DNA of 64,000 nt from Patescibacteria group bacterium (GTDB lineage Bacteria; Patescibacteriota; Patescibacteriia; Veblenbacterales; UBA10138). The stretch spans positions 1,744-65,743 of the forward strand of contig JBAZQK010000008.1 in NCBI GenBank assembly GCA_041645215.1, given 5' to 3'. The position numbers were made by a program, and so were the translations under genes. Of the stretch, positions 1 to 12,340 are shown piece by piece (the first letter of the stretch is position 1; each line of letters begins with the position of its first letter). The notes beneath the pieces were generated by a model, which made no database searches, was not told the origin of the DNA, and saw nothing but the letters and a program-made list of their open reading frames with translations.

Positions 1-503
1 ATTTCAAGAAAGAAGGTATTAAAAATTTCATTCTGCTGTCTGGTGATCGCGATGAAGTGGCCAAAAAAGTCGCTCTCTCGCTTGGTATTCAAGAAGCCCA
101 TGGCGATATCTTGCCTGACCAGAAACTCAAAATAATTGAGGATTTGCAGAAAAAAGGCCACAAAGTTGCGATGATTGGGGACGGCATTAATGACGCACCA
201 GCACTCAAACAAGCAGATGTGGGTATTGCAATGGGCGCGATGGGTATGGAGCCAGCCATAGAGGCATCAGACATCGCGCTGATGTCCAATGATTTAAAGA
301 AAGTTGCGATAGTGCATTCCATATCCAAACGAGTAATTCGCACTATAAAACAAAACATTATCCTCGGTCTGGGATTTACCCATGGACTCGGAATGATACT
401 TGCTCTACTTCATATTCTTAATCCAATTCAAGCGGCATTCTTTCATGCCGTTCCCGATCTTCTCATTTTGCTTAACTCCGGACGTTTGATTCAAAAAAAT
501 TAG
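1..503 (+). CDS. C-terminal part of a heavy-metal (P1B-type) P-type ATPase; its 5' end lies upstream of the window
   Basis: Frame 3 is open from base 3 and encodes ...GDRDEVAKKVALSLGI...GDGINDAPAL...GAMGMEPAIEASDIALMSNDL, the hinge and last transmembrane helices of CadA/ZntA-type pumps. Confidence 0.8.
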   Translation, partial: FKKEGIKNFILLSGDRDEVAKKVALSLGIQEAHGDILPDQKLKIIEDLQKKGHKVAMIGDGINDAPALKQADVGIAMGAMGMEPAIEASDIALMSNDLKKVAIVHSISKRVIRTIKQNIILGLGFTHGLGMILALLHILNPIQAAFFHAVPDLLILLNSGRLIQKN

Positions 504-529
504 TATAATAAAATAACGCAAAATAATTT

Positions 530-1006
530 ATGAATAAAACAACCTCAACATCTGATTCTCCACAGGTAATCGCGCCACCGCCGTTCATTTATTTAGGCGG
601 AATCGCAGTCGGATTTATTCTTCACTTGATCAAACCTTTGTCGTTTCTACCAAAGAATTTCGCATTGCCACTTGGCGTGGTATTGATTGTGATTTCGGTT
701 TTGCTTGTTGTTACTGCTATACGCACGTTTATAAGAGCGAAAACAAATATTGATGTACGAAAACCAACCACAAGCATCGTCAGCGTTGGCCCCTACCGCT
801 TCACCCGCAATCCGATTTATCTCTCCATGGCACTCCTCACCATAGGCATAGCAGTTTGGGCTAATGCTCTATGGATACTCATCACACTCGTGCCTGTACT
901 TCTTGTAATGCAATTCGCGGTAATTCTTCGAGAAGAAGATTATCTCACAAGAAAATTCGGCGGGGAGTATTTGCAATACAAAACAAGGGTTCGTCGCTGG
1001 ATATAG
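530..1006 (+). CDS. Isoprenylcysteine carboxyl methyltransferase (ICMT)/phospholipid methyltransferase family membrane protein
   Basis: Multi-TM protein with RNPIYLS...EEDYLTRKFGGEY C-terminal motif typical of the ICMT/PEMT family. Confidence 0.65.
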   Translation: MNKTTSTSDSPQVIAPPPFIYLGGIAVGFILHLIKPLSFLPKNFALPLGVVLIVISVLLVVTAIRTFIRAKTNIDVRKPTTSIVSVGPYRFTRNPIYLSMALLTIGIAVWANALWILITLVPVLLVMQFAVILREEDYLTRKFGGEYLQYKTRVRRWI

Positions 1007-1017
1007 CCGCCGTAACT

Positions 1018-2649
1018 ATGTTAAAAGATCAAAAATTTATGAAAAATAAGACACTAATAGTAGGAATAGTTACTGTGGCGATATTGATTGCCGGAGGTTT
1101 CTTTTTCTCAAACAAATTCTCAAACAAAGGGAATGTTTCCAGTCAGACATTTTCAACGAGCACACAGGGCTTGCCCGAAGCCCAAACTTCGCAAACAGTT
1201 GAACTTAAGAATGGCGATAGCTACACTCTTACCGCGAGCATAGTAAAAAAAGAGATTGGCAATACCGAAGTAAAAATGCTGGCCTACAACGGCTCAATCC
1301 CCGGGCCGCTCATCAAAGTTGTTCAGGGAGCGGCAGTTACCATAAACTTTAAAAACGGCACGGATATGAAGACACTGCTCCATTCCCATGGCGTGCGGAT
1401 GGACAATCCCTTTGACGGCTCGCAGACAACACAGGCGGAAATGGAACCCGGGGAAACCTTTGCCTACAAGCTGAAATTCCCCGATGTTGGTATGTACTGG
1501 TACCACCCGCATGTGCGCGAGGATTACGCCCAGGAGCTTGGACTGTATGGAAATTACTGGGTGGTGCCAAGTGATTTAAATTATTGGTCGCCGGTTAATC
1601 GCGAAGTACCGCTTTTTGTGGATGACATTTTGATTGAGAACGGGGAGATACGTTTAAGCAAAAAATCCGTCGACCGAACGCTTACGGGACGATTCGGCAA
1701 GGTGATGCTTATAAACGGTGAATCCGATTATATTCTTAACGCCAAGGCGGGAGAGGTAATTCGCTTCTACCTTACCAACGCGGCCAATACACGCACCTTT
1801 AATCTGGCTATCAATGGAGTAAAAATGAAACTTGTTGGCGGCGATAGCGGCGCCTATGAAAAAGAGGAATGGAAAGAAAGTGTTATCCTAGGTCCATCAG
1901 AGCGGGTGATTGTTGAAGCGCTCTTTGATCGCGCGGGAACGTATACCATACAGCACAAAACTCCCAATCGCGAATACAAGATGGGGAAGGTTGTCGTGTC
2001 CGCAGACGTTATTTCCTCTTCGTATGCGAAAACTTTTTCTATTCTAAGAACCAACAAGGCGGCGGTGGCGGATATCGATCCATTTAGGGCCTATTTCACT
2101 AAACCGATTGCTAAGCGCATTTCTCTTAGTATTGATATGAGCAGGGGTGAGATGGGTTCAATGATGATGAGCCAGATGGCCGCTGGGTCTACTAGGGGGA
2201 ATATGTCGACCGGAGACCGGCCGGCCGGTGAAGCCGGAGGAGTGAGCCCCGACGGCATTGAGTGGGAAGATACCAATCCAATGATGAACAAAACATCAAA
2301 TGCCGCCATGACTCGGTGGAAGATTGTAGATGAGGCCACTGATCAGGCTAATATGGACATTGACTGGAAGTTTAAAGTCGGCGACAAAGTAAAAATAAGA
2401 ATTACGAACGATCCGAATTCAATGCATCCAATGCAACACCCGATTCATTTCCACGGCCAGCGATTTTTAGTGCTTGATCAGAGTGGCGTACCGCCGACCA
2501 ATCTTGTCTGGAAGGACACTGTATTGGTGCCATCCGGTCAGTATGTTGATATTCTACTCGACGCTTCCAATCCAGGTACATGGATGGCGCATTGCCACAT
2601 TGCCGAGCATTTGGAGGCCGGGATGATGATGAAATTTAAGGTGGAATAA
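1018..2649 (+). CDS. Multicopper oxidase (CueO/CopA-like) with signal anchor and Met-rich segment
   Basis: HSHGVRM, WYHPHV, HPIHFHG and HCHIAEHLEAGMM copper-ligand motifs; Met-rich insert MSRGEMGSMMMSQM. Start ATG 1018 or 1039 after the upstream stop; the listed ORF start at 871 overlaps the previous gene. Confidence 0.85.
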   Translation: MLKDQKFMKNKTLIVGIVTVAILIAGGFFFSNKFSNKGNVSSQTFSTSTQGLPEAQTSQTVELKNGDSYTLTASIVKKEIGNTEVKMLAYNGSIPGPLIKVVQGAAVTINFKNGTDMKTLLHSHGVRMDNPFDGSQTTQAEMEPGETFAYKLKFPDVGMYWYHPHVREDYAQELGLYGNYWVVPSDLNYWSPVNREVPLFVDDILIENGEIRLSKKSVDRTLTGRFGKVMLINGESDYILNAKAGEVIRFYLTNAANTRTFNLAINGVKMKLVGGDSGAYEKEEWKESVILGPSERVIVEALFDRAGTYTIQHKTPNREYKMGKVVVSADVISSSYAKTFSILRTNKAAVADIDPFRAYFTKPIAKRISLSIDMSRGEMGSMMMSQMAAGSTRGNMSTGDRPAGEAGGVSPDGIEWEDTNPMMNKTSNAAMTRWKIVDEATDQANMDIDWKFKVGDKVKIRITNDPNSMHPMQHPIHFHGQRFLVLDQSGVPPTNLVWKDTVLVPSGQYVDILLDASNPGTWMAHCHIAEHLEAGMMMKFKVE

Positions 2650-2657
2650 AAAATTGC

Positions 2658-2684
2658 AAAACCAGTCGTTCCTGAGCTGGTTTT
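2658..2684 (+). terminator. Rho-independent terminator after the multicopper oxidase gene
   Basis: AAAACCAG-11 nt-CTGGTTTT hairpin directly after the TAA at 2647-2649, followed by a T-run. Confidence 0.6.
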
Positions 2685-2688
2685 AGTT

Positions 2689-2736
2689 ATCCACAGCCCT
2701 ATTTGACAGATAGGGTATAGGGGTATAGAGTATAAA
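2689..2736 (+). promoter_or_regulatory. Candidate promoter with overlapping inverted-repeat operator upstream of the CsoR-family gene
   Basis: CCCTAT-TTGACAG-ATAGGG dyad (2697-2715) with TTGACA -35 inside it, a second GGGTAT word and TATAGA/TATAAA -10 candidates. Confidence 0.45.
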
Positions 2737-2771: not shown

Positions 2772-3044
2772 ATGGTAGACCAAAAGTTAAAGAAACGGGC
2801 TATTCATCGAACTAAGATTATTATGGGGCAGGTTAAAGGCCTGACGCAGGCAATTGAAAAGGAACAATATTGCATTGAGCTTTTAAATCAATCGCTCTCC
2901 ATCCAGCGGTCTTTAAAGAGTTTGGACGCGTTACTGTTGGAAAATCACCTCAAAACTCATGTTCAGCACCAAATGCGGGCGACCGACGGAATTGCCAGGG
3001 CCGTTACGGAGTTAATAAAAATTTATCATTTAGCGAGCAAATAA
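2772..3044 (+). CDS. csoR: CsoR/RcnR/FrmR-family metal-sensing transcriptional repressor
   Basis: 90 aa; helical; C...H...C spacing (CIELLNQSLSIQRSL...HLKTHVQHQ) as in CsoR/RcnR. Confidence 0.75.
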   Translation: MVDQKLKKRAIHRTKIIMGQVKGLTQAIEKEQYCIELLNQSLSIQRSLKSLDALLLENHLKTHVQHQMRATDGIARAVTELIKIYHLASK

Positions 3045-3047: not shown

Positions 3048-3437
3048 ATGAATTACGGTTACAAAAAACAGTTTAATGGTTCTTGGACGCAGGCCGTTGC
3101 CAAAATTAAAACCGAACTAGCCGAACAGGGCTTTGGCATTCTGACGGAGATAGATGTCAAGGCCGCTTTAAAAAATAAATTGGATATTGACTATGATAAT
3201 TATGTTATTTTAGGAGCCTGCAATCCACCATTCGCTTATCAAGCGTTGCAAGCGGAAAAAGACATCGGCCTGCTTTTGCCCTGCAATGTGATTGTGTACG
3301 AGGATAAGGGAAAGGTATTTGTGGCGGCGATTCTGCCCACGGTGGCGATGGACATGGTTGATAATTCAGCCTTGGCTGATATTGCCACCGAAGTGGAAGC
3401 AAAATTAAAAATAGCCGTTGATAATCTTAAAGTGTAA
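3048..3437 (+). CDS. DUF302 domain protein
   Basis: GACNPPFAYQAL...LLLPCNVIVYED matches the DUF302 family; frequently metal-operon associated. Confidence 0.7.
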   Translation: MNYGYKKQFNGSWTQAVAKIKTELAEQGFGILTEIDVKAALKNKLDIDYDNYVILGACNPPFAYQALQAEKDIGLLLPCNVIVYEDKGKVFVAAILPTVAMDMVDNSALADIATEVEAKLKIAVDNLKV

Positions 3438-3441: not shown

Positions 3442-3627
3442 ATGCCAGAGTTCCAATGTGAAATTTGTAAATTAAAATATAAAGATAACTTAACCGCTCG
3501 GCAGTGCTATGAGTGGTGCCGTCAACATGATAGTTGCAATTGGCATATAGCCAGCCAGGCCATAAATAAAGACGAAGCCGAAAAACAAAAATTAAATGAT
3601 AAAAGATACAATGAATTTAATAATTAA
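3442..3627 (+). CDS. Small Cys-rich hypothetical protein (zinc-ribbon-like CxxC...C...C)
   Basis: MPEFQCEICKLKYKDNLTARQCYEWCRQHDSCNWH; weak RBS; start uncertain. Confidence 0.35.
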   Translation: MPEFQCEICKLKYKDNLTARQCYEWCRQHDSCNWHIASQAINKDEAEKQKLNDKRYNEFNN

Positions 3628-3644: not shown

Positions 3645-4349
3645 ATGAAAAAAATATTTTTTATAATCACGACTTTTATCATAATCGGAATAATTAATTT
3701 TACTGTAATTAGTACAGTGACGGCCCAGGCCGACAACTCTAACCAATCGCTGGACGCCCAACTTAAAGATGTTTTAGCAACCCAGAATATAACTGAAATC
3801 AGTAAAATTAACTGCGCGCAAGTTACGGATGAGCAATTTGCCAAATTGGGAGATGCTTATATGGAGCAAATTCATCCGGGCGTACAGCACGAGTATATGG
3901 ATAAAATAATGGGTGGAGAAGGTTCAACCTCTTTGCAAGCCGTGCATATTCGAATGGGACAAGCTTATTTGGGTTGCGGTTCATCGTGTTCGGCCGGCGC
4001 TATGATGGGTGGCGGTTATGGCATGATGGGCAGTGGAATGATGGGCGGGTATTATCTCAATAACGGCGCCGGATTTAATTCAACATTTAATTCTAATGAG
4101 AGGGGAGGTGTATATTCTATGATGGGTTTTCCTTTTATGAGCTTTGGTTTTGGCTGGGGTTGGCTAATAATGGTTTTATTCTGGATTTTGGTAATTATGG
4201 GAATTATTTGGCTGGTGAAATTATCGACCACTAAAAATAACGGTCAAAGTAAACCGTTAGATGCCCTGGAGATATTAAAAACCAGATACGCCAAAGGTGA
4301 AATTGGCCAGGAGGAGTTTGAGGAAAAAAAGAAGAACTTAACCAATTAA
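3645..4349 (+). CDS. Secreted/membrane Met-Gly-rich protein with C-terminal SHOCT domain
   Basis: N-terminal signal/TM, MMGGGYGMMGSGMMGGYY low-complexity Met/Gly/Tyr segment, TM helix, then LEILKTRYAKGEIGQEEFEEKKKNL SHOCT-like tail. Confidence 0.6.
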   Translation: MKKIFFIITTFIIIGIINFTVISTVTAQADNSNQSLDAQLKDVLATQNITEISKINCAQVTDEQFAKLGDAYMEQIHPGVQHEYMDKIMGGEGSTSLQAVHIRMGQAYLGCGSSCSAGAMMGGGYGMMGSGMMGGYYLNNGAGFNSTFNSNERGGVYSMMGFPFMSFGFGWGWLIMVLFWILVIMGIIWLVKLSTTKNNGQSKPLDALEILKTRYAKGEIGQEEFEEKKKNLTN

Positions 4350-4363: not shown

Positions 4364-4585
4364 ATGAAACCATCAAAATTAATGCATGTTATCAGCATTA
4401 TCGTGGGATTCGCCGGCGTGATTACATTTGCGGCCGCGATCCTCGGCGGCGCTGATAACCTTGTATTCGGGGTTACAAAAGTAGATGCCTTGCTCTACGC
4501 CGGGATTCTTGTTCTTATCGCAATCTGGGTTCAGATTGCAACCATTCATCACATGATGCTTGAGAAAAGCGGAGAGATCGTTTAA
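4364..4585 (+). CDS. Small 2-TM membrane protein (paralog of 6938..7111)
   Basis: 73 aa; shares MK.SK..HVIS...G..GV and C-terminal MHHMMLE..GEI with the downstream paralog. Confidence 0.5.
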   Translation: MKPSKLMHVISIIVGFAGVITFAAAILGGADNLVFGVTKVDALLYAGILVLIAIWVQIATIHHMMLEKSGEIV

Positions 4586-4603: not shown

Positions 4604-4876
4604 ATGGAACAATTATCACTTAAAAAATACGGCTGGAAATGCGTGCTCGGCTCTGAAATAGTTTACTTTATTTGTCTTTTGGGCGGACTACTCCCTTGGC
4701 GTACCGCGAGGGGCCTAGAACTGCATCACACATTCTTTGAAACTCTTCCCGGATTCACGTGGCTAACTGCCGGTAGCGTGATACTGGGAGCTATCTATTT
4801 CTTTATTTTTGCCTGGATCTTCGCCTGGTACTTCGTCTGGATGCACAACTCCAGCCTGGTTGAAAACAAGAAATAA
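4604..4876 (+). CDS. Hypothetical membrane protein
   Basis: 90 aa, 3 predicted TM; present only in copy A of the duplicated module. Confidence 0.4.
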   Translation: MEQLSLKKYGWKCVLGSEIVYFICLLGGLLPWRTARGLELHHTFFETLPGFTWLTAGSVILGAIYFFIFAWIFAWYFVWMHNSSLVENKK

Positions 4877-4890: not shown

Positions 4891-5211
4891 ATGTACGACC
4901 ATAACAACCAGAAAAACTCTTCCCTGATATGGATGATGCTCATCTGCCTATTGCTTTTGGTTGTTCTGCTTTTTACGGGAGGCAAGTTGTTGGCCGGCGG
5001 ATACCTCTGGCCGGTTCTTATTGGCGTCTTTGTCATCGCGCACCTCTGGATGATGTTCAAAGGACATAAAGGACACAGCGGGCACAGCGACGCTAATAGG
5101 GCAGAGAAATCTAACCTGCCGGTTCCGCTAAGCCCGGCGCCGGCCGGTGCAACTTTAGCAAAACAACCCGAGGCCAAGGACGAACATAAGCACGGCGGCT
5201 GCTGTCATTAA
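4891..5211 (+). CDS. DUF2933-like small membrane protein with His-rich and C-terminal HKHGGCCH tail
   Basis: 106 aa; one TM; HKGHSGHSD and terminal HGGCCH metal-ligand-like motifs; near-identical paralog at 7130..7450. Confidence 0.55.
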   Translation: MYDHNNQKNSSLIWMMLICLLLLVVLLFTGGKLLAGGYLWPVLIGVFVIAHLWMMFKGHKGHSGHSDANRAEKSNLPVPLSPAPAGATLAKQPEAKDEHKHGGCCH

Positions 5212-5230: not shown

Positions 5231-6115
5231 GTGACAACTATGGAATTACTTTTAAGTGCCTCAATTATTGCCGCCTTTATCGCCGGCGTGGCCGCCCTCT
5301 TCGCGCCGTGTTGCATTACCGTACTTTTGCCGTCGTACTTTGCTTCCATTTTCCGCGAAAAGCGCAAGGTATTCGTGATGACTTTTATTTTCTTTTTGGG
5401 AATTCTCACGGTCTTTCTACCGATTGGATTAGGGGCAGCGGCTCTCGGCAAATTCTTCAGCCAATATCATAATGCGGTGTTTGGCATCGGCGGTATTTTC
5501 CTCACTGTATTAGGAATGATTATTCTTATCGGCAAGCATTTTTCGTTGCCATTTCAAGTACATCCGACGCTTAAAAAACACAGTGCGGCTTCGGTATTTA
5601 CGCTCGGCATATTTTCAGGAATCGCTACTACTTGCTGCGCGCCGGTACTTGCGGGCGTATTGGCCCTCGCAGCACTTCCCGGATCGGTATTTTGGGGTGG
5701 TATCTACACCTTAAGTTATGTTTTTGGAATGGTCGCGCCCCTCTTTCTGATTTCGCTTTTCCTTGATAAAGTCAATTTTGGACAAAAGCTCCAACAAATC
5801 TTCAATAGGCCGGTCCGATATCGATTAGTCGGCAAGGGAATAAGTATTACTGTTTCCGAAGCAGTGTCGGGCATCACTTTTCTTGCCATGGGCGTTTTGA
5901 TTCTTTATCTTGCGCTTACCAATCGACTCTTTATGCAAGCTGGAGGATATCAGATAAACATCAATATTTACCTCACAAAGGTTTTGCAATCAATAAGCGG
6001 CGTCGCGCAAGCGACTCCCGAATATGTATGGGCGCTTTTATTAATCATAATCATTGGCGGAATTGTCTGGCGCGTCGTTCGCCAATTAAATAAAGAAAAA
6101 TATGAACCCCGTTAG
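5231..6115 (+). CDS. DsbD_2/CcdA-like polytopic membrane protein with paired Cys motifs
   Basis: 294 aa, 8+ TM; LFAPCCITVLLPSY and TCCAPVLAGV motifs in TM segments; the last codons and stop (YEPR*) are supplied by the flanking TIR element. Confidence 0.5.
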   Translation: MTTMELLLSASIIAAFIAGVAALFAPCCITVLLPSYFASIFREKRKVFVMTFIFFLGILTVFLPIGLGAAALGKFFSQYHNAVFGIGGIFLTVLGMIILIGKHFSLPFQVHPTLKKHSAASVFTLGIFSGIATTCCAPVLAGVLALAALPGSVFWGGIYTLSYVFGMVAPLFLISLFLDKVNFGQKLQQIFNRPVRYRLVGKGISITVSEAVSGITFLAMGVLILYLALTNRLFMQAGGYQININIYLTKVLQSISGVAQATPEYVWALLLIIIIGGIVWRVVRQLNKEKYEPR

Positions 6116-6244: not shown

Positions 6245-6890
6245 TAAAAAAATAAACGTTTCTACAATTGTTATCGCAATAGTAATTATTGCCGCCATAG
6301 GTCTTTTGATTTGGGGCGGCAGCCAGAATAAAACCAGCGCGCCGGCGGTGGATCAGCATGGGATGCCAATTGCCGCCAATACTTCGGTGGCGCCGCTTAA
6401 TGAACTGGTCAATAAATCGGCGCCGGATTTCGCGTTAGCTGACAAAGATGGCAAAATATATTCATTGAATGAATTACGGGGCAAAAACATTGTCCTCTTC
6501 TTTAACGAAGGATTAATGTGCTATCCTGCATGCTGGAACCAAATCGTTTCGCTCTCGCAAGACGAGCGCTTCAAAAATGACGACACCGTAATTCTCTCGG
6601 TTGTGGTTGACTCCAAAGAAGATTGGCAGCGCGCGGTTAACAAGATGCCCGAACTTGTTCAAGCGGCGGTAGTTTTTGATAACAACGCGTCTGTCTCAAA
6701 AAAGTTTGGCGTTCTTGCAACCCCGTCTTCTATGCACCCCGGTTCGCTTCCCGGTCATACCTATGTCTTGATTGATAAAGAAGGAATAATTAGATATGTT
6801 TTTGACGATCCGAATATGGGAATCCGCAACGATCAGTTAGTTGCAGAAATTTCGAAATTATCCCCGAGTAGTACTGGAAATACACCATAA
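6240..6890 (+). CDS. Thioredoxin-fold (redoxin/TlpA-like) protein with signal anchor and atypical CxxxC motif
   Basis: 216 aa; N-terminal TM; GKNIVLFFNEGLMCYPACW redoxin-like active-site region; candidate GTG start formed by the TIR/direct-repeat junction. Confidence 0.55.
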   Translation: MNKKINVSTIVIAIVIIAAIGLLIWGGSQNKTSAPAVDQHGMPIAANTSVAPLNELVNKSAPDFALADKDGKIYSLNELRGKNIVLFFNEGLMCYPACWNQIVSLSQDERFKNDDTVILSVVVDSKEDWQRAVNKMPELVQAAVVFDNNASVSKKFGVLATPSSMHPGSLPGHTYVLIDKEGIIRYVFDDPNMGIRNDQLVAEISKLSPSSTGNTP

Positions 6891-6937: not shown

Positions 6938-7111
6938 ATGAAATTATCAAAAGTGTTGCACGTTATTTCTGTTATCGCGGGGCTTGTTGGGGTTGCTATG
7001 TCGGCCTTCGCTGTTCTTATCTGGCCTGCTGATGTCGTGTGGTTTGGGCTCACGAGGGACATTGCGACTATGCATCACATGATGCTTGAAAATCGCGGAG
7101 AGATTATTTAA
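6938..7111 (+). CDS. Small 2-TM membrane protein (57 aa; paralog of 4364..4585)
   Basis: Not in the ORF track (<60 aa); translation MKLSKVLHVISVIAGLVGV...MHHMMLENRGEII parallels 4364..4585. Confidence 0.45.
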   Translation: MKLSKVLHVISVIAGLVGVAMSAFAVLIWPADVVWFGLTRDIATMHHMMLENRGEII

Positions 7112-7129: not shown

Positions 7130-7450
7130 ATGCACGACCATAACAACCAGAAAAACTCTTCCCTGATGTGGATGATGCTCATCGGCCTATTGCTTTTGGT
7201 TGTTCTGCTTTTCACGGGAGGCAAGTTGTTGGCCGGCGGATATCTCTGGCCGGTTCTTATTGGCGCCTTTGTCATCGCGCACCTCTGGATGATGTTCAAA
7301 GGACATAAAGGACACGGCGGGCACAGCGATGCTAATAGGGCAGAGAAATCTACCCTGCCGGTTCCGCTAAGCACGGCGCCGGCAGATGCAACTTTAGCAA
7401 AACAACCCGAGGCCAGGGGCGAACATAAGCACGGCGGGTGCTGTCACTAG
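7130..7450 (+). CDS. DUF2933-like small membrane protein, paralog of 4891..5211
   Basis: 106 aa; about 95% nucleotide identity to 4891..5211 (same length, HGGCCH tail). Confidence 0.55.
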   Translation: MHDHNNQKNSSLMWMMLIGLLLLVVLLFTGGKLLAGGYLWPVLIGAFVIAHLWMMFKGHKGHGGHSDANRAEKSTLPVPLSTAPADATLAKQPEARGEHKHGGCCH

Positions 7451-7459: not shown

Positions 7460-8101
7460 ATGGAAAATTCCTACGGCCTCTGGCCGCTCGTCATTATCAT
7501 CTCCTTGGCGCTCATTGCTTTCGCGGCCAGCTTTGTTCGGCCTAAAACAGCGCGGGATTGGCGGTCGCTCGGCGTGTTTTCGGCATTCGTTGTCGCCCTG
7601 TTTGCGGAGATGTACGGATTTCCACTGACCATCTATCTCGTGTCTGGGTGGCTTGTGAAGAATGTACCCGGTATTGATTTATTTTCACACAATTCCGGCC
7701 ATCTCTTTGAAGACCTCTTCGGGTGGGGCGGCGATCCGCACTTCGGACCGTTCCACATCGCCAGCTACATTTTAATTTTTTACGGCTTCGCGCTACTCGC
7801 TAATGCCTGGAAGGCACTCTATGCGGCCCGGCGCCAGCACACACTGGCAGTCACCGGTCCATACGCTCGCGTTCGCCATCCGCAGTATGTCGGCTTCGTC
7901 ATTATTATGCTCGGCTTCCTCTTGCAGTGGCCAACACTCCTCACGCTTGTTATGTTCCCGATTTTGGTATGGATGTATGTACGATTGGCCCGACGCGAGG
8001 AAGCCGACGCCAGGAAAGAATTTGGCGAAGTATGGGAAGCATACACCCGTCAGACCCCAGCTTTCATCCCCAAATGGGAATCAAAAATTGTTAACGCTTA
8101 A
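7460..8101 (+). CDS. ICMT/phospholipid methyltransferase family membrane protein (second copy in island)
   Basis: 213 aa; ...GPYARVRHPQYVGFV...REEADARKEFGEVWEAY ICMT-family C-terminal signature. Confidence 0.65.
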   Translation: MENSYGLWPLVIIISLALIAFAASFVRPKTARDWRSLGVFSAFVVALFAEMYGFPLTIYLVSGWLVKNVPGIDLFSHNSGHLFEDLFGWGGDPHFGPFHIASYILIFYGFALLANAWKALYAARRQHTLAVTGPYARVRHPQYVGFVIIMLGFLLQWPTLLTLVMFPILVWMYVRLARREEADARKEFGEVWEAYTRQTPAFIPKWESKIVNA

Positions 8102-8108: not shown

Positions 8109-8264
8109 ATGTTTCGCTCATTTTTCAATAAATTAAAAGGTGATTCCAGTAAAGAATTTCCCAAAGATCCGGTTTGTGGCAGGCGCGCAACCGCTGAAAT
8201 TATTTTAGTCTACAAAGGGCAGACTTATGCTTTCTGTTCGGATCACTGCCGAGGGGCAGTTTGA
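8109..8264 (+). CDS. Small YHS/TRASH-like metal-binding domain protein
   Basis: 51 aa MFRSFF...DPVCGRRATAEIILVYKGQTYAFCSDHCRGAV; C-x-C...FCS..C pattern of the YHS domain; the longer listed ORF 7803..8264 overlaps the previous gene. Confidence 0.55.
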   Translation: MFRSFFNKLKGDSSKEFPKDPVCGRRATAEIILVYKGQTYAFCSDHCRGAV

Positions 8265-8297: not shown

Positions 8298-8789
8298 ATG
8301 ATCAACAACATCGCCAAATCAATCCGGTACGGAACGCTCGCCAGCGCAATCTTGCTGGGGGTTTATTTTGCCATTCTCTCGTTGGTGTCGGGATGGGGGT
8401 TCGCCCAAAGTCAATTTGCTTCCTTTTGGTATTTTATTGTCAGTTTGGTAGTAGGTTTTGGAATTCAGATTGCATTGTACCAATACATTAAAAGTCTGGT
8501 GCATAGCGGACAGGGTATGGGCAAGGTAGTCGGTGTATCCGGAACCACTTCCACCGCGGCCATGATTTCCTGTTGCGCTCACTATTTAGTGAATTTAGTG
8601 CCTATTCTTGGAGTGACCGGGCTCGTGACATTTGTCGCGCAGTATCAAATTGAACTTTTCTGGGTAGGTCTTGCTTCTAATATATTTGGTATCGGATATA
8701 TGGTTAGTAAAATTATTAAATTTTTCGCCCAACGCGCCCGCCTGCCGGACGGGCAGGGATCCGCCTTTGGCGGAAAAAAAATACCATGA
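8298..8789 (+). CDS. Hypothetical polytopic membrane protein (contains SCCAHY motif)
   Basis: 163 aa, 4-5 TM. Confidence 0.45.
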   Translation: MINNIAKSIRYGTLASAILLGVYFAILSLVSGWGFAQSQFASFWYFIVSLVVGFGIQIALYQYIKSLVHSGQGMGKVVGVSGTTSTAAMISCCAHYLVNLVPILGVTGLVTFVAQYQIELFWVGLASNIFGIGYMVSKIIKFFAQRARLPDGQGSAFGGKKIP

Positions 8790-9250
8790 AAAAAACAATA
8801 ATAACAATTTTATCATTAGTTATTTTAATTGGAAGCTTTCTTATTTTTTATAAAAATCGTCCATTAGAACAAAAGAAGCCAGTTATTAATCAGACAGATC
8901 AGCAAACGAGCACGAAACAAAATTGGGAATCAAAAATTGATGATCAAACGGCGGTCACCGTTACCATCACTCCCACTGATATTTTGTCCCAATCAAAAGA
9001 GTGGAAATTTAGTATAGTCATGGATACTCATTCGGTTGAATTGGATCAAGATTTAATAAAGTCAGCTATTCTTATAGATGATATGGGGAAAGAATATAAA
9101 CCGCGCAATTGGGAAGGACCAGTCGGTGGTCATCACCGAGAAGGCGTGTTGGTGTTCAACGCTATTCAACCAATGCCAAAATCGGTCGAAATCAAAATTA
9201 AGGATGTCGGCGGAATTCAGGAGCGATCCTTCAAATGGGATTTGAAATAA
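8786..9250 (+). CDS. Hypothetical signal-anchored extracytoplasmic protein
   Basis: 154 aa; N-terminal TM then soluble beta-rich domain with GGHHREG. Confidence 0.45.
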   Translation: MKKTIITILSLVILIGSFLIFYKNRPLEQKKPVINQTDQQTSTKQNWESKIDDQTAVTVTITPTDILSQSKEWKFSIVMDTHSVELDQDLIKSAILIDDMGKEYKPRNWEGPVGGHHREGVLVFNAIQPMPKSVEIKIKDVGGIQERSFKWDLK

Positions 9251-9259
9251 ATCCAATTT

Positions 9260-9961
9260 ATGTCAAAAATAACAAAAATAGTCTACGTAGTCCTGTTCAT
9301 TATTCTCCTCTTAATGCCCCATTTCAGTAGGCATGTAGGAGATATTTCCCAAGCTTATGTGGAATCGATTGTTATGCTGGTTATTTTTGGAATTGCATAT
9401 TTGACATACTTTTTAAACAAATACGAGTTACGTAAACACGAAGAGCAAACTCGTAAATTGGAACAAAATTTACAGATATCTGAACAAAAACTATTAGAGT
9501 CGTTTGAGTACATCGGCACGGTTAACCGCCGACTTCCCCTTTTTAAGAATTTGAGCAGCGACCTTTTAGATAACAATCAGTTTACTAAAAAGTATAAAAA
9601 GGGTATTTTTGATAACCTTCTTGCCACCGCTGTAATTTCTATCGCCCAAGCAAAATGGGGCGTATTCCGATTTGTGGAAGTGGCTAAACAGCGAACCGTG
9701 AGGGAGTTCATTTTTGCTCCTAAAAATTACGTTTTATTAACTCAACGAATCGGAAATAAGGATTTGATTGTTTGTCGCAACGATGACAGTAATATCAAAA
9801 AGGTTGGCAACTTTTATATTATTCCTACCTCAGACCAAGTTGCGCTAATTCAAAATTTTCTCATCTTGCCCCAATCGGATACGGATTTTGGAGAAGAATA
9901 TCCAATACTGCGGGCGATTACAGACCAAGCTCAGTTATTTTATAAATATTTATTTACATAA
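9260..9961 (+). CDS. Hypothetical membrane-anchored protein
   Basis: 233 aa; two N-terminal TM helices then soluble domain. Confidence 0.4.
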   Translation: MSKITKIVYVVLFIILLLMPHFSRHVGDISQAYVESIVMLVIFGIAYLTYFLNKYELRKHEEQTRKLEQNLQISEQKLLESFEYIGTVNRRLPLFKNLSSDLLDNNQFTKKYKKGIFDNLLATAVISIAQAKWGVFRFVEVAKQRTVREFIFAPKNYVLLTQRIGNKDLIVCRNDDSNIKKVGNFYIIPTSDQVALIQNFLILPQSDTDFGEEYPILRAITDQAQLFYKYLFT

Positions 9962-9973
9962 TTTTAAAAATCT

Positions 9974-12340
9974 ATGAACCAACACAATCATAATGCAATG
10001 CAAAAAGAAGAAGGAATAATATACACTTGCCCTATGCATCCGGAGGTGCGGAAAACTGAACCCGGCAAATGTCCGGGCTGTGGTATGGATTTAATTCCTG
10101 AAAAGAAAAAAATAATTACCAATGTTGATAAACATGCCGACCATGACATGCAGAAAATCAGTCATGCTGATCATGAGACAGCAATGACCAATCCGCAAAT
10201 GGCCAAAGCTATGGAGAAAGATATGCGAAAAAGATTTTTTATTTCCTTCTTGCTTTCCATTCCGATTTTTCTCTATTCGCCGGTCGGTACGAACATTCTG
10301 GGTATTGCGCTACCGTCGCCAATTCCAATCAACTGGCTGCTTCTTATCCTGACGACGCCAATCGTTTTTTGGACAGGTTCAATTTTTATCACCGGTACCT
10401 ATTACTCCCTCAAGGCCAAGAAGCTCAATATGGCCGTCTTGGTCGCTACTGGTGTTTTGGCCGCGTATCTCTTTAGCGTGCTTCTCACCTTGATTCGGCC
10501 GGACAGTGAGACCTTTTATGAAGCGGCAGCTTTGCTTGTTACTTTCGTCTTATTCGGCCACTGGATGGAAATGAAATCTCGGCGGGGCACTTCGGATGCG
10601 CTCCGCACGCTTTTCGATCTTGTTCCGCCCAAGGCAAATGTTATTCGGGGAGAGAAAGAGATAACTATTCCCAGCGCGGAAATTGTTAAAGGGGATATTG
10701 TTGTCATCCGGCCCGGCAATAAAATTCCGGTAGACGGCGAGGTGGTGGAAGGGGAGACATATATTGACGAGTCATTAGTGACGGGAGAATCGCTGCCGGT
10801 GCACAAAAAATTAGGCGGCAGTGTCGTCGGCGGGTCTATCAACCAGAACGGTTCAGTTAAATTCAAAGCGACAAAAGTGGGAAGTGACACGGTTCTCGCC
10901 CAAATTATAAAAATGGTGGAAACTGCGCAGAACTCTAAAGCACCGGGCCAGCGCCTTGCCGACACGGCGGCCGGGTGGTTGGTTATAGTGGCGATCGGCT
11001 CGGGACTGGCGGCGTTTTTCGGGTGGTATCTCGGAGCCGGAGTGGGACTTATAACCGCTCTGACGTTTGCGGTATCAACGGTCGTGATCGCTTGTCCGGA
11101 TGCTTTGGGGCTCGCTACGCCGACCGCTGTCGCCGTGGGAACCGGCATCGGTGCCAAGCACAATATTCTCATCAAGGACGCGACCACGCTGGAAAAAACA
11201 TCAAAGATCAACGCCATGATTCTTGATAAAACAGGGACATTGACAAAAGGCCAACCCGAAGTCACAGACATCGTTTCGTTTCTTGAGAGAAAGGACAAGG
11301 GAACCCAAACGCGAATTCTTCAAATTGCCGCTTCCATAGAAAAACAATCCGAGCATCCGCTCGCTCGAACGATCGTGGATAAGGCTTCCCGGGAAGGGAT
11401 TGACCTTTTCTCGGTTTCCAAGTTTGAAGCCGTAGCGGGCCACGGGGTGAAGGGATTTATCTTGGAGTCGGCGGCCGGTTTAGGGAAACAGTCATTGCCG
11501 CCGCTGGCTACGGCAGTACAGCGTGAAGCCGAGGCTAGGCGTGTTCCAAAATCTACTATCAATGATTTTAAAGTTCAACCCGGCCATGGATTGGAGGACA
11601 GACTTGCGGACGGGGGACACCTCGTGCTTTTAGGGAACGAGCGCCTTATGGAAGTTCACAAAATAAACCTTGATCTTGAGATGCGCCAAGAAATGGAGCG
11701 GTTGCAAAGCGAAGGCAAAACGGCGATGCTTCTGGCTTTGAATAACGATATTATTGGTGCCGTGGCGGTCGCGGATACCGCTCGCGAAAATTCAAAGAGG
11801 ACTATTAATGAGTTGAAACGGATGGGCATTGAGACGATTATGATAACGGGAGATAATCAGCGGACCGCCAAAGCGATTGCGAAACAGCTCGGCGTGGATC
11901 GGGTGTTTGCCGAGGTTTTGCCCGCCGAAAAGGCAAACTGGGTAAAGAAACTTCAGAGCGAAGGCAAATTTGTGGCAATGGTCGGAGACGGCATCAATGA
12001 CGCTCCAGCATTGGCACAATCGGATATCGGTATTGCTATCGGAGCCGGGACCGATGTCGCCATAGAAACTGGCAACATTGTGCTCATGAAATCAGATCCA
12101 TACGACATCGTGGCGGCTATACGCCTTTCAAAAGCAACAGTTACCAAGATGAAGCAGAATCTGTTCTGGGCGGCCATTTACAACGTGCTGGCCATTCCGG
12201 TTGCCGCCGGCGTGTTCTATAATTCCCTCGGCTGGTCGCTTCGGCCGGAAATAGCCGCGCTCCTTATGTCAGCGTCGTCAATTATTGTGGCCACCAATGC
12301 AGTGCTTCTCAAACGAGTCGAGCCCCGCCTGCGTCAATAG
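9974..12340 (+). CDS. copA: Heavy-metal (copper-type) translocating P1B-type ATPase with N-terminal CxxC metal-binding domain and His-rich stretch
   Basis: 788 aa; YTCPMHPEV...CPGCGM N-terminal metal-binding domain; HADHDMQKISHADHE; TGES, CPD (TM6), DKTGTLT, GDGINDAPAL P-type motifs. Confidence 0.9.
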   Translation: MNQHNHNAMQKEEGIIYTCPMHPEVRKTEPGKCPGCGMDLIPEKKKIITNVDKHADHDMQKISHADHETAMTNPQMAKAMEKDMRKRFFISFLLSIPIFLYSPVGTNILGIALPSPIPINWLLLILTTPIVFWTGSIFITGTYYSLKAKKLNMAVLVATGVLAAYLFSVLLTLIRPDSETFYEAAALLVTFVLFGHWMEMKSRRGTSDALRTLFDLVPPKANVIRGEKEITIPSAEIVKGDIVVIRPGNKIPVDGEVVEGETYIDESLVTGESLPVHKKLGGSVVGGSINQNGSVKFKATKVGSDTVLAQIIKMVETAQNSKAPGQRLADTAAGWLVIVAIGSGLAAFFGWYLGAGVGLITALTFAVSTVVIACPDALGLATPTAVAVGTGIGAKHNILIKDATTLEKTSKINAMILDKTGTLTKGQPEVTDIVSFLERKDKGTQTRILQIAASIEKQSEHPLARTIVDKASREGIDLFSVSKFEAVAGHGVKGFILESAAGLGKQSLPPLATAVQREAEARRVPKSTINDFKVQPGHGLEDRLADGGHLVLLGNERLMEVHKINLDLEMRQEMERLQSEGKTAMLLALNNDIIGAVAVADTARENSKRTINELKRMGIETIMITGDNQRTAKAIAKQLGVDRVFAEVLPAEKANWVKKLQSEGKFVAMVGDGINDAPALAQSDIGIAIGAGTDVAIETGNIVLMKSDPYDIVAAIRLSKATVTKMKQNLFWAAIYNVLAIPVAAGVFYNSLGWSLRPEIAALLMSASSIIVATNAVLLKRVEPRLRQ

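What the first reader, a model, noticed from the sequence alone, without database searches (positions are those of the whole stretch)
1..12340. Dense copper/thiol homeostasis island with duplicated modules
Within 12 kb the window holds:
- two P1B ATPases (one truncated by the window edge, with a ZntA/CadA-like C-terminus; one full-length with an N-terminal CxxC metal-binding domain and a CPD TM6 motif instead of the usual CPC)
- a multicopper oxidase with a Met-rich insert
- a CsoR-family repressor
- DUF302
- a Met/Gly-rich SHOCT protein
- two DUF2933-like HGGCCH proteins
- a YHS-domain miniprotein
- a CC-motif DsbD_2-like membrane protein next to a CxxxC thioredoxin-fold protein
- two ICMT-family methyltransferases

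ICMT-family and DUF2933 genes recur next to metal-efflux genes in other bacteria, but their function there is unknown.

The unusual CPD in place of CPC/CPH in TM6 may indicate altered metal selectivity.
Basis: partly seen in the sequence, partly recalled or inferred. Interest (0 to 1): 0.55.

Follow-up and report, generated by a model that had tools for sequence, protein, structure and literature searches.

The report
Copper-stress gene island in a Patescibacterium
This is a real, roughly 21-kb chromosomal cluster of copper- and thiol-handling genes in an uncultured Patescibacteria (CPR) bacterium; it is built around a CsoR repressor, a CopB-type copper pump with an uncommon but already reported CPD motif, and a copper oxidase, so it is a lineage-specific variant of a well-known kind of resistance island and not a new kind of system.

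Summary
The gene list is essentially correct. HMMs support the multicopper oxidase, CsoR, DUF302, SHOCT, YHS, DsbD-type membrane protein, AhpC/TSA-fold CxxxC protein, two ICMT/PEMT methyltransferases and two P-type ATPases.

Two labels fail:
- The HGGCCH proteins do not reach the DUF2933 threshold. Kinship is weak and rests mainly on synteny.
- The edge-truncated ATPase is not ZntA/CadA-like. It belongs to a Cys-less SP[I/L]E subfamily.

The island is larger than reported. It runs about 9 kb upstream of the window and down to 15,983, with about 33 co-directional genes.

CPD is not a one-off. All 120 closest homologues and all 80 related genomic loci carry it, as do plasmid pumps of Mycolicibacterium, Methylocystis and Meiothermus. 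CPD pumps group with CPH (CopB/P1B-3) pumps (94/100 bootstrap). The motif was noted in 2017.

A CsoR-type operator overlaps the csoR promoter and is conserved in related loci.

The accessory genes recur as shuffled modules beside CPD pumps across Patescibacteria, while the flanking housekeeping genes never do. Base composition gives no sign of recent foreign origin.

Verdict: a new variant of a known kind, of moderate interest. Its value lies in about ten conserved orphan Cys/His/Met-motif families and the unexplained small-protein–ICMT pair.

The parts
1..503 (+). g01: 3' end of ATPase-1 (full length 617 aa in L081:7604-9457). Cys-less P1B-like pump with TM4 SPIE, a TM5 His and TM6 HAVPD, and no N-terminal metal-binding domain
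530..1006 (+). g02: ICMT/PEMT-family membrane methyltransferase (ICMT_a), a distant paralogue of g15
   Evidence: PEMT 3.3e-16; ICMT 25.5 bits; 27% identity to g15
1018..2649 (+). g03: three-domain multicopper oxidase (CueO-like) with an N-terminal membrane anchor, intact HxH/HxH/HxxHxH/HCHxxxHxxxxM sites and a Met-rich insert
2658..2684 (+). Hairpin (AAAACCAG...CTGGTTTT) after the MCO gene; likely terminator separating the upstream unit from the csoR unit
   Evidence: sequence
2697..2735 (+). csoR promoter and candidate CsoR operator: CCCTAT-TTGACA(-35)-G-ATAGGGTATAGGGGTAT-AGAGT(-10)
   Evidence: The same TTGACAnATAGGGTATAGGGGTA is found upstream of csoR in 12 other loci
2772..3044 (+). g04: CsoR-family repressor with ligand fingerprint C34-H59-H63 (x-C-H-H)
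3048..3437 (+). g05: DUF302 protein with two invariant Cys (C58, C79)
3442..3627 (+). g06: 61-aa cytoplasmic Cys-rich miniprotein (CxxC...CxxxCxxHxxC). In other loci it often sits immediately upstream of the pump. Candidate chaperone
3645..4349 (+). g07: Met/Gly-rich membrane protein with a C-terminal SHOCT domain
4364..4585 (+). g08: 73-aa two-TM protein with a conserved TIHHMMLEK motif (orphan family)
4604..4876 (+). g09: 90-aa two-TM protein, weak DUF5676 match; conserved C13, C24, HH41-42, MH80-81
4891..5211 (+). g10: HGGCCH protein copy 1 (two TM, AHLWMMFKGHxGH, C-terminal KHGGCCH); DUF2933-like by architecture and synteny only
5240..6115 (+). g11: DsbD_TM-family membrane protein with two invariant CC pairs (APCC, TTCC)
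6240..6890 (+). g12: membrane-anchored AhpC/TSA-fold protein. It lacks the peroxiredoxin Thr/Arg and has C94xxxC98 plus M165-H166 and H173 (a Sco-like ligand pattern)
6938..7111 (+). g13: 57-aa paralogue of g08 with an internal deletion
7130..7450 (+). g14: HGGCCH protein copy 2 (about 95% nt identity to g10 over the ORF only)
7460..8101 (+). g15: ICMT-family methyltransferase (ICMT_b), 65-68% identical to ICMT genes on proteobacterial metal-resistance plasmids
8109..8264 (+). g16: stand-alone YHS/TRASH miniprotein (C21-x19-C41-x2-H-C45). The same domain is fused to the pump N-terminus in Proteobacteria
8298..8789 (+). g17: 163-aa polytopic membrane protein with an invariant CC-x-H motif (orphan family), always paired with g18
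8786..9250 (+). g18: membrane-anchored beta-sandwich ectodomain with an invariant His triad (H82, H116, H117); 593 homologues, all hypothetical proteins
9260..9961 (+). g19: 233-aa membrane protein of unknown function, poorly conserved (3 of 80 loci)
9974..12340 (+). g20: CopB-type (P1B-3-related) pump with an N-terminal HMBD, TM4 CPD, TM5 NX6YNX4P, TM6 MSASS, and an internal duplication in the N-domain (aa ~497-547)
12357..12455 (+). Out-of-frame relic of the last ~33 codons of another P1B ATPase (…AVLMSLLTVIVAVNAVLLKK); a scar of pump replacement
12540..12995 (+). g21: 151-aa Cys-containing membrane protein, lineage-specific
13069..13617 (+). g22: DUF1573 (Ig-like) protein with invariant C-M-C and GMPGHG motifs
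13625..14413 (+). g23: second DsbD-like/SfLAP-family membrane protein (NPC...CEFPC)
14429..14953 (+). g24: 174-aa cytoplasmic helical protein with a C-terminal CC-x-E (orphan family), paired with g25
14982..15983 (+). g25: 333-aa anchored ectodomain protein with the invariant motif RPCCGNSTxFPDCNHGMA (orphan family). It is among the most frequent partners of the pump (28 of 80 loci); only CsoR is commoner (30)
16055..16225 (.). ~170-nt element with 17-bp terminal inverted repeats at the right edge of the island (MITE-like or structured repeat)

Best explanation
The region is the core of a roughly 21-kb chromosomal copper-stress island in a Patescibacteria (CPR) genome. It is assembled from modules that move among CPR lineages.

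Shown here:
- A CsoR-family repressor (x-C-H-H ligand set) sits behind a sigma-70-like promoter whose -35/-10 spacer carries a conserved CsoR-type operator.
- Downstream lies a co-directional run of genes ending in a CopB-type P1B pump (CPD in TM4; Cu-type TM5/TM6 residues; HMBD N-terminus).
- Upstream lies a separate unit with a CueO-like multicopper oxidase, a second methyltransferase and a Cys-less P1B-like pump.

Inferred mechanism:
- Cytoplasmic Cu(I) releases CsoR from its operator.
- Cu is handed by small cytoplasmic Cys proteins (the free YHS/TRASH miniprotein and/or the 61-aa Cys protein) to the pump's HMBD and is exported.
- Outside the single membrane, the anchored MCO oxidises Cu(I) to the less toxic Cu(II).
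- Small membrane or anchored proteins with invariant Cys/His/Met motifs (g08, g09, HGGCCH, g17/g18, g22, g25) bind or relay copper.
- Two DsbD-like membrane proteins, with a CxxxC...H Trx-fold partner (g12) and a DUF1573 partner (g22), keep extracytoplasmic thiols reduced or repair copper-catalysed disulfides, analogous to Scs or CcdA/ResA systems.
- The ICMT-family enzyme acts with the small HGGCCH/DUF2933-like protein in an uncharacterised, SAM-dependent methylation step that is conserved next to copper pumps from Proteobacteria to CPR.
- The Cys-less ATPase-1 probably exports a harder divalent cation, which would make the island multi-metal.
For: - Domain assignments.
- Pump identity: best PDB matches are CopA pumps (E = 5e-168); P1B-1/3 TM5/TM6 signatures are present in all homologues; CPD+CPH form one clade in 94/100 bootstraps.
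- MCO copper ligands are intact.
- Regulation: the best promoter match in 16.8 kb lies at 2703-2731, overlapped by CCCTAT-N7-ATAGGG and ATAGGGTATAGGGGTAT. The identical arrangement occurs upstream of csoR in 12 other loci, and the ATACCCC-N3-GGGGTAT palindrome (the published C. glutamicum CsoR box, PMC5057107) at 15 further sites.
- A C-H-H CsoR has a copper-responsive precedent in Thermus thermophilus (PMC5057107, citing Sakamoto 2010).
- Modular synteny: CsoR 30, g25 28, g17 25, g18 23, DsbD_TM 18, AhpC-like 18, DUF5676-like 18, SfLAP-like 16, ICMT_b 15, MCO 15, DUF1573 15, HGGCCH 14 and DUF302 13 of 80 loci; flanking genes 0 of 80.
- Invariant Cys/His/Met motifs in every accessory family.
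- The YHS and HMBD domains are fused to the pump in Xanthobacter and Acinetobacter plasmids, where a small protein and ICMT lie directly upstream.
- Copper induction of a merR-copA-cupredoxin-DUF2933-ICMT cluster is reported in PMC8478169.
- The g18 model is a confident beta-sandwich; its second-best PDB match is the H. pylori copper-resistance protein CrdA.
- A comparable MCO-DUF302-SHOCT-Met-rich-CPD pump-CsoR island sits on a Meiothermus plasmid.
Against: - No experiment exists on any CPD pump, so the transported metal is inferred from motifs. Asp in place of Cys/His is a harder ligand, and the C-H-H sensor type is reported to be poorly selective (Cu+, Cu2+, Zn, Cd).
- Only one operator was found in the window, so control of genes beyond the 124-bp and 199-bp gaps (6116-6239, 12341-12539) is not shown.
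- The roles of the orphan families rest only on conserved residues and neighbourhood. The g18 fold match is generic (TM 0.4-0.5).
- The Sco-like reading of g12 has no HMM support (SCO1-SenC E = 0.28).
- DUF2933 kinship is weak.
- Most Patescibacteria lack respiratory cuproenzymes, so the need for such a large copper apparatus is unexplained.
Confidence: 0.72

Rival explanations
1. The island serves copper supply and cuproenzyme maturation, not detoxification. The CPD pump would be a slow, CopA2/FixI-like exporter that loads the anchored multicopper oxidase. The Sco-like g12, the g17/g18 pair (CopD/CopC-like in logic) and the small His/Met proteins would act as extracytoplasmic copper chaperones.
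For: - CxxxC...H pattern in g12.
- Beta-sandwich His-triad protein paired with a polytopic membrane protein.
- An MCO is present in 15 of 80 loci.
- Patescibacteria have few other cuproenzymes, so a dedicated loading route for the MCO is conceivable (inference).
Against: - Repression by a CsoR-type sensor that is released by excess metal is the logic of detoxification.
- The MCO is absent from most loci that carry the pump and accessory genes (65 of 80).
- The Met-rich insert is typical of cuprous oxidases such as CueO (best NCBIfam match CueO, below its cut-off).
- Analogous gene sets sit on metal-resistance plasmids from mines and contaminated soils.
Confidence: 0.12
2. The island is primarily a multi-metal or divalent-metal (Zn/Cd/Co/Ni/Pb) or reactive-sulfur/thiol-stress island, and copper is only one of several triggers. 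The CPD Asp and the C-H-H sensor would shift specificity to harder cations. Rhodanese, DsbA and DUF302 would serve sulfur trafficking.
For: - The C-H-H ligand set resembles RcnR (H-C-H-H), and T. thermophilus CsoR binds Zn and Cd as well (PMC5057107).
- ATPase-1 has only Ser/Glu/His/Asp ion-site residues. Its nearest cultured relatives lie next to CzcE-like, DmeF and RcnR-like genes.
- Rhodanese, DsbA-like and a second DUF302 gene lie upstream.
- ICMT homologues CzcN/NccN sit in Co/Zn/Cd/Ni clusters (PMC7563307).
Against: - g20 keeps every Cu(I) site-II residue (YN, MxxSS), and its closest structures are copper pumps.
- The operator is the copper-CsoR box.
- An MCO with a Met-rich insert is specific to copper.
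- The regulator lacks the second Cys of persulfide sensors (CstR) and the N-terminal His3 of RcnR.
- ATPase-1 relatives do not travel with the other island genes.
Confidence: 0.13
3. The dense cluster is an assembly or binning chimera, or a chance juxtaposition, of unrelated metal genes from different organisms.
For: - The source is a metagenome-assembled genome.
- GC3 varies among the island genes (0.34-0.64).
- A relic pump 3' end and a duplicated ORF show past rearrangement.
Against: - The same sequence was recovered in a 70.8-kb NCBI contig and in two independent assemblies, with 1 mismatch in 11,006 bases and 0 in 4,924.
- Overall GC and codon usage match the housekeeping part of the window.
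- The same modules occur in the same order in dozens of other Patescibacteria contigs.
Confidence: 0.02

Closest known systems
CsoR-regulated copper efflux operons of Gram-positive bacteria and Thermus (csoR-copZ-copA; C. glutamicum and T. thermophilus CsoR)
   Same: A CsoR-family repressor whose GC-rich TACCCC/GGGGTA operator overlaps the promoter, controlling a P1B copper pump. The C-H-H ligand set matches T. thermophilus CsoR.
   Different: There is no CopZ/HMA chaperone; a free YHS/TRASH miniprotein and a 61-aa Cys protein stand in its place. The pump is CopB-type with CPD. The operon is about ten times larger and carries many orphan membrane proteins.
CopB / P1B-3 ATPases (CPH motif; A. 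fulgidus and E. hirae CopB) and the 'CPD subtype' of Cubillas et al. 2017
   Same: The pump falls in the same clade (94/100 bootstrap), with the same YN(X)4P and MSxS[ST] signatures and a Cys-Pro-X TM4 motif. CPD has already been reported for Xanthobacter, Nitrobacter and Bradyrhizobium pumps.
   Different: The N-terminus is a zinc-ribbon HMBD instead of a His-rich stretch. TM6 reads MSASS (the P1B-1 form), not MSxST. The closest ~40 homologues carry an internal duplication of the SEHPL segment of the nucleotide-binding domain.
merR-copA-cupredoxin-DUF2933-ICMT genomic-island module of Gammaproteobacteria (Cusick et al. 2021), and CzcN/NccN of Cupriavidus
   Same: A small two-TM His/Met-rich protein sits immediately upstream of an ICMT-family methyltransferase next to a copper pump. 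The ICMT is 65-68% identical across phyla. YHS and HMBD domains are associated with the pump.
   Different: The regulator is CsoR, not MerR. There is no cupredoxin. YHS is a separate gene. The small protein carries a C-terminal KHGGCCH tail and does not reach the DUF2933 threshold. The partner pump is CPD, not CPC.
E. coli Cue system (CopA + CueO)
   Same: A cytoplasmic-membrane Cu(I) pump combined with an extracytoplasmic multicopper oxidase that carries a Met-rich insert.
   Different: The MCO is membrane-anchored, with no Tat signal visible, in an organism with one membrane. The regulator family differs.
Scs (suppressor of copper sensitivity) and CcdA/ResA or DsbD/TlpA thiol-reducing systems
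   Same: A DsbD-type membrane electron conduit is encoded next to an anchored Trx-fold protein inside a copper-responsive context.
   Different: The membrane protein has CC pairs instead of single Cys. The Trx-fold partner has CxxxC plus His (a Sco-like pattern) and scores as AhpC/TSA. A second such module uses a DUF1573 CxC protein.

Membership tests
P1B-type (heavy-metal) P-type ATPase, copper branch (g20) | E1-E2 ATPase and HAD domains with DKTGT; the whole protein scores above the NCBIfam cut-offs for ATPase-IB and IB1_Cu | tested here: met
   TIGR01525 618 bits (cut-off 346); TIGR01511 581 bits (cut-off 397). DKTGT is visible in the sequence.
P1B-1 (CopA) subgroup | TM4 CPC together with TM5 NX6YNX4P and TM6 MXXSSX5[NS] | tested here: not met
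   TM5 and TM6 match, but TM4 is CPD in the window and in 120/120 and 80/80 relatives. The CopA equivalog model scores 555 bits against a cut-off of 1316.
P1B-3 (CopB) subgroup | TM4 CPH, TM6 MSxST, His-rich N-terminus; phylogenetic grouping with CopB | tested here: inconclusive
   CPD and CPH pumps group together in 94/100 NJ bootstraps. However, His is replaced by Asp, TM6 is MSASS, and the N-terminus is an HMBD. The tree is neighbour-joining on 58 sequences only.
ZntA/CadA (P1B-2) for the edge-truncated pump (g01) | TM4 CPC, TM5 NX7K, TM6 DXGX7N | tested here: not met
   The full-length sequence has SPIE, N-x7-T-H and HAVPD. The ZntA models score far below their cut-offs.
CsoR/RcnR family (PF02583), copper-sensing CsoR type | Family HMM; W-X-Y-Z ligand fingerprint x-C-H-C; GC-rich inverted-repeat operator at the regulated promoter | tested here: inconclusive
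   The HMM is met (63 bits). The operator is met. The fingerprint is x-C-H-H, not C-H-C, as in the copper-responsive T. thermophilus CsoR (PMC5057107). Metal selectivity is not testable here.
Multicopper oxidase (CueO-like) | Three cupredoxin domains; four His-rich copper-binding motifs including HCH; Met-rich region near the T1 site | tested here: met
   The CueO equivalog is below its cut-off (146 vs 525 bits), so this is an MCO of CueO type and not a CueO orthologue.
DUF2933 (PF11666) | Score at or above the Pfam gathering threshold (21 bits) | tested here: not met
   10.7 bits (E = 0.63) for g10 and no hit for g14. None of the 18 homologues is annotated with it. Weak remote signal: the family HMM ranks the two ICMT-adjacent small proteins first and second of 1,483 ORFs (E = 7e-4 and 0.28), and hhalign gives 26% probability.
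YHS/TRASH domain (PF04945) | Score above the gathering threshold; C-x19-22-C-x3-C cysteine pattern | tested here: met
   33.4 bits against 30.3. C21, C41 and C45 are conserved in 9/9 sequences.
ICMT/PEMT membrane methyltransferases (PF04140/PF04191) | Score above the gathering threshold; C-terminal SAM-binding region (RHPxY...E) | tested here: met
   g02: PEMT 60 bits. g15: ICMT 39 bits. 'RHPQY' is conserved 16/16. The substrate is not testable here.
Peroxiredoxin (AhpC/TSA) as an enzyme class, for g12 | Catalytic PxxxTxxC motif and a conserved Arg | tested here: not met
   In the alignment to Prx 2ywn, Thr is replaced by Tyr and Arg by His. The fold family is met (70 bits).
Sco1/SenC copper chaperones, for g12 | PF02630 match; CxxxC plus a distal His | tested here: inconclusive
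   CxxxC, H166 and H173 are conserved in 18-19 of 19 sequences, but PF02630 scores only E = 0.28.
DsbD/CcdA transmembrane domain (PF02683), for g11 | Score above the gathering threshold; one Cys in each of two pseudo-symmetric TM helices | tested here: met
   36.7 bits against 27.1. Both positions are CC pairs, conserved in 18-19 of 19 sequences.

The most novel reading that the evidence does not exclude
The pump-proximal orphan families (g08, g09, HGGCCH, g17/g18, g24/g25, the 61-aa Cys protein), together with the cross-phylum-conserved small-protein-ICMT pair, may form an uncharacterised extracytoplasmic copper-handling pathway specific to single-membrane, ultra-small CPR bacteria. In this reading, a SAM-dependent methylation step (of a lipid, a thiol or the partner protein) is an integral part of copper resistance that has been overlooked, and the CPD pump has a metal or oxidation-state preference different from both CopA and CopB.
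Probability: 0.25. Interest if true: 0.65.

Novelty: new variant of a known kind. Interest (0 to 1): 0.4.

Why it matters
- Copper islands built from a sensor, a P1B pump and a multicopper oxidase are textbook. This one shows how bacteria with tiny genomes and a single membrane assemble the same function from a different parts list.
- It gives a defined, widely conserved set of about ten small Cys/His/Met-motif protein families that have no annotation.
- It provides a domain fission/fusion link tying the YHS miniprotein to the pump.
- It links the Patescibacteria island to proteobacterial metal plasmids through an ICMT enzyme that is 65-68% identical. The role of this enzyme has been an open question since CzcN/NccN were described.
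- It shows that the CPD variant is the standard pump in every Patescibacteria relative sampled here, which makes that clade a good target for testing what the third TM4 residue does for metal selectivity.

Tried and rejected
- An exact look-up of the pump's contig found nothing. It succeeded with the small ICMT gene.
- Rfam found no RNA families in the island.
- GC, GC3, codon usage and dinucleotide signature do not separate the island from the rest of the window (GC 0.454 vs 0.456; Mann-Whitney p = 0.37-0.67).
- No integrase, transposase or tRNA lies at the borders.
- The first tree attempt timed out and was redone.
- The single-sequence AlphaFold model of g25 was unusable (pLDDT 40).
- Family profiles of g25 and g17 found no solved relative.
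- Relaxed Pfam scans gave nothing credible for g17, g18, g21, g24, g25 or four upstream proteins.
- A second CsoR operator was sought in the window and not found.
- ATPase-1 relatives in metagenomes share no island neighbours, so a conserved 'ATPase-1 module' was rejected.
- The idea that C-H-H versus C-H-C regulators track the two operator classes was tested and rejected: C-H-H occurs with both.
- The idea that the C-terminal GGCCH tail is the ICMT substrate was set aside, because the proteobacterial partners lack it.
- A mercury-resistance reading was rejected: there is no MerA, MerR or MerP.

Full report
**Source and gene content**

The window comes from an uncultured Patescibacteria (CPR) genome. 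The 788-aa pump, the HGGCCH protein and g18 are each identical to NCBI proteins of a 'Patescibacteria group bacterium' MAG on a 70,840-bp contig. From base 1 to 15,983 every credible ORF lies on the + strand.

Pfam and NCBIfam support these assignments:
- a multicopper oxidase (1018-2649)
- a CsoR-family repressor (2772-3044)
- DUF302 (3048-3437)
- a Met/Gly-rich SHOCT protein (3645-4349)
- a DsbD_TM protein (5240-6115)
- an AhpC/TSA-fold protein (6240-6890)
- two ICMT/PEMT methyltransferases (530-1006, 7460-8101)
- a YHS miniprotein (8109-8264)
- a P1B ATPase with an N-terminal HMBD (9974-12340)

The two 106-aa HGGCCH proteins do not reach the DUF2933 threshold, and none of their 18 homologues carries a Pfam domain.

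**True extent**

An independent assembly (L081) differs from the window by 1 base in 11,006. A third (L082) is identical over 4,924 bases. This excludes an assembly artefact and supplies the missing upstream part. That part holds a small CC membrane protein, a DsbA-like CPFC protein, three orphan proteins (one His-rich, one very Cys-rich), a rhodanese, a second DUF302 and the full 617-aa ATPase-1. The whole set is bounded on the left by a divergent DEAD-box helicase gene.

On the right the island ends at 15,983 and is followed by TrpR, a histidine operon and other core genes: Mfd, DprA, TopA, RelA/SpoT, ParB, PurD, Der and HisS. The island is therefore about 21 kb with roughly 33 genes. It is chromosomal and has no mobility genes or tRNA at its edges.

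**The CPD pump**

The closest solved structures are the A. fulgidus and L. pneumophila CopA pumps (E = 5e-168 and 1e-163). TM5 (NLFWAAIYNVLAIP) and TM6 (MSASSIIVATN) carry the copper signatures.

TM4 reads CPD. This holds in all 120 best homologues, in all 80 related loci from GTDB species representatives, and in plasmid-borne pumps of Mycolicibacterium gilvum, Methylocystis rosea and Meiothermus taiwanensis. Among the 150 best 50%-identity representatives out of 1.84 billion proteins, 8 are CPD, 6 CPH, 1 SPD and about 130 CPC.

In a neighbour-joining tree, CPD and CPH pumps form one clade in 94 of 100 bootstraps, while CPD alone is monophyletic in only 7. The pump is thus a CopB-type (P1B-3-related) pump with Asp in place of His. 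Cubillas et al. 2017 reached the same placement for three rhizobial pumps, called the motif novel and did not characterise it (PMC5552934). No functional study of a CPD pump was found in the library.

Two further features:
- The 54-aa 'insert' relative to CopA (aa ~497-547) is an internal duplication of the N-domain segment that carries SEHPL. About 40 close homologues share it, and it is partly degenerate in the window copy.
- Directly after the stop codon lies an out-of-frame relic of another pump's last ~33 codons (12357-12455). This is a scar of gene replacement.

**The other pump**

ATPase-1 aligns 'SPI' to the CPC of CopA. In 24 metagenomic relatives the motifs are SP[L/I]E in TM4 (24/24), a TM5 His (24/24) and HxxxD in TM6 (18/24 matched the HxxxD search pattern). 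Cupriavidus and Shinella plasmid relatives (41% identity) read SPAE / H / HLGPD. The Cupriavidus gene lies beside CzcE-like, DmeF and RcnR-like genes.

These residues fit neither ZntA nor canonical P1B-4. They suggest a harder divalent cation (inference). The relatives of ATPase-1 never carry other island genes nearby, so this pump joined the island independently.

**Regulation**

After a hairpin that follows the MCO gene (2658-2684) comes the best sigma-70-like match in 16.8 kb: TTGACA-17-TAGAGT at 2703-2731. CCCTAT-N7-ATAGGG embraces the -35 box, and ATAGGGTATAGGGGTAT fills the spacer.

Upstream of csoR homologues in related loci:
- the same 'TTGACAnATAGGGTATAGGGGTA' occurs in 12 loci;
- ATACCCC-N3-GGGGTAT occurs at 15 further sites. 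This is the CsoR box reported for C. glutamicum (PMC5057107).

The repressor's ligand positions are C34-H59-H63. This is C-H-H in 25 of 31 homologues and C-H-C in 5, and it does not depend on operator class. T. thermophilus CsoR has the related H-C-H-H set, responds to copper, and also binds Zn and Cd (PMC5057107, citing Sakamoto 2010). The regulatory logic of a copper-released repressor is therefore well supported. Strict copper selectivity is not.

**Conserved modules**

BLAST of the window proteins against all ORFs of 80 loci that encode relatives of the pump shows three recurring, shuffled modules:
- [CsoR - g08 - g09 - HGGCCH - (ICMT) - YHS - g17 - g18 - pump]
- [DsbD_TM - AhpC-like - g24 - g25]
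- [DUF1573 - SfLAP/DsbD-like - g24 - g25]

The MCO, DUF302, SHOCT and the 61-aa Cys protein are optional additions. The loci span many CPR lineages, one Woesearchaeota contig and one Acidimicrobiia contig. Flanking housekeeping genes are never shared.

Each accessory family keeps invariant soft-metal ligands:
- g17: CC-x-H (26/26)
- g18: H82/H116/H117 (24/24 in the loci; also invariant in a 63-sequence alignment)
- g11: two CC pairs
- g12: CxxxC plus MH and H
- g22: CMC
- g25: PCC...C-N-H (29/29)
- g24: C-terminal CC

g12 lacks the peroxiredoxin Thr and Arg and shows the Sco ligand pattern, but it has no significant Sco HMM match.

g18 has 593 homologues, all 'hypothetical'. Its AlphaFold model (pLDDT 83, and above 90 in the ectodomain) is a membrane-anchored beta-sandwich. 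The best PDB matches are MPT63 and the H. pylori copper-resistance protein CrdA, at TM 0.4-0.5. That is compatible with a CopC/CrdA-like metal-binding protein but not diagnostic.

**Link to proteobacterial metal plasmids**

ICMT_b is 65-68% identical to ICMT genes on plasmids of Cupriavidus, Xanthobacter, Ralstonia and Acinetobacter, several of them from mines. On pXAUT01 and pALWEK1.1 the gene order is small two-TM His/Met protein (annotated DUF2933 in Acinetobacter), then ICMT, then a CPC pump whose N-terminus carries YHS and HMBD domains in tandem. In the window the order is HGGCCH, ICMT_b, free YHS, g17, g18, g19, then HMBD-pump.

This is a fission/fusion relationship. It ties the YHS miniprotein functionally to the pump and shows that the small-protein-ICMT pair is an ancient partner of copper pumps.

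An HMM of the HGGCCH family ranks exactly those two small proteins first and second among 1,483 ORFs of the plasmid loci, but the scores are weak (E = 7e-4 and 0.28; hhalign probability 26%). Published work documents the same pairing (copper-induced merR-copA-cupredoxin-DUF2933-ICMT, PMC8478169; CzcN/NccN, PMC7563307) without assigning a function. NCBIfam similarities of g15 to isoprenylcysteine O-methyltransferase, lipid A phosphate methyltransferase LmtA and methanethiol S-methyltransferase MddA allow a carboxyl, phosphate or thiol acceptor.

**Duplication and origin**

Only the HGGCCH ORF is recently duplicated, or homogenised by gene conversion: about 95% identity from start to stop codon. 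The preceding g08/g13 pair is diverged, and g13 has lost part of its second helix. g09 is present only in copy 1. The two ICMTs share 27% identity.

The arrangement looks like a fusion of two island variants that both exist separately in other genomes.

Composition does not distinguish the island from the rest of the window. Within it, GC3 ranges from 0.34 to 0.64, with the HGGCCH and ICMT_b genes highest. Mobility is therefore inferred from comparative evidence only:
- shuffled modules in unrelated contexts;
- 56-78% pump identity across CPR classes (64% to a pump on one Woesearchaeota contig);
- the relic pump end;
- a MITE-like element at the right border.

**Verdict**

The island is a lineage-specific, enlarged variant of a CsoR/CopB/MCO copper-resistance cluster. 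Its most interesting content is not the CPD motif itself, which is clade-wide and already noted. It is the set of conserved, unannotated Cys/His/Met-motif proteins and the cross-phylum small-protein-ICMT-YHS-pump association.

Noticed in passing
window 16055-16225; also 12473-12483 and L081:129-142: A ~170-nt element with 17-bp terminal inverted repeats (TTAGGACTTACGCG...CGCGTAAGTCCTAA) folds at -85 kcal/mol (z = -9.2) and has no Rfam match. Its 11-mer end motif recurs four times in the window, allowing one mismatch, against 0.6 expected, and the copies bracket the g21-g25 module. It may be a MITE/REP-like repeat or a structured RNA.
   Followed up: partly
window 2687-2695, 16326-16334, 19768-19776(-); related loci L001-L080: The perfect DnaA-box 9-mer TTATCCACA occurs 34 times in 1.46 Mb of Patescibacteria loci (about 12 expected). 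In 10 of the 34 cases TTGAC follows 7-13 nt downstream, including at the csoR and TrpR promoters here. It looks like a promoter-proximal element shared across CPR lineages.
   Followed up: partly
window 12357-12455: An out-of-frame relic of the last ~33 codons of a different P1B ATPase lies directly after the pump's stop codon (52-59% identical to pump C-termini), suggesting that the pump gene was replaced by recombination.
   Followed up: yes
window 11462-11614 (aa ~497-547 of the pump): The nucleotide-binding domain contains an internal duplication of its SEHPL-containing segment. About 40 of the closest homologues share it, and it is partly degenerate (SLPPLA) in this copy.
   Followed up: partly
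L081:7604-9457 (window 1-503 is its 3' end): ATPase-1 belongs to a conserved P1B-like subfamily with no cysteine in the ion pathway (TM4 SP[L/I/A]E, a TM5 His, TM6 HxxxD). Relatives occur on Cupriavidus and Shinella plasmids. I did not find this subgroup described in the papers read.
   Followed up: partly
L081:3544-7599 (upstream of the window): The island's left part encodes a DsbA-like CPFC protein, a rhodanese, a second DUF302 and four orphan proteins. One of these is very Cys-rich (CCSPMD, PCCCKCW), and one has an HWH...HTHE His-rich motif.
   Followed up: no
window 16840-25145 and 43086-48125: An apparently complete histidine operon (with a HisS-like HisZ candidate, HisG, HisD and a HisC-phosphatase fusion) and purine-synthesis genes (PurD and neighbours) are present. 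This is notable because many Patescibacteria lack such biosynthetic pathways. A second HisS-type gene lies at 53538-54896.
   Followed up: no
window 9260-9961: g19 is a 233-aa protein with two N-terminal TM helices, a coiled-coil stretch and an unassigned C-terminal domain. It sits between g18 and the pump and recurs next to the pump in only 3 of 80 loci. It may be a lineage-specific sensor or adaptor.
   Followed up: no
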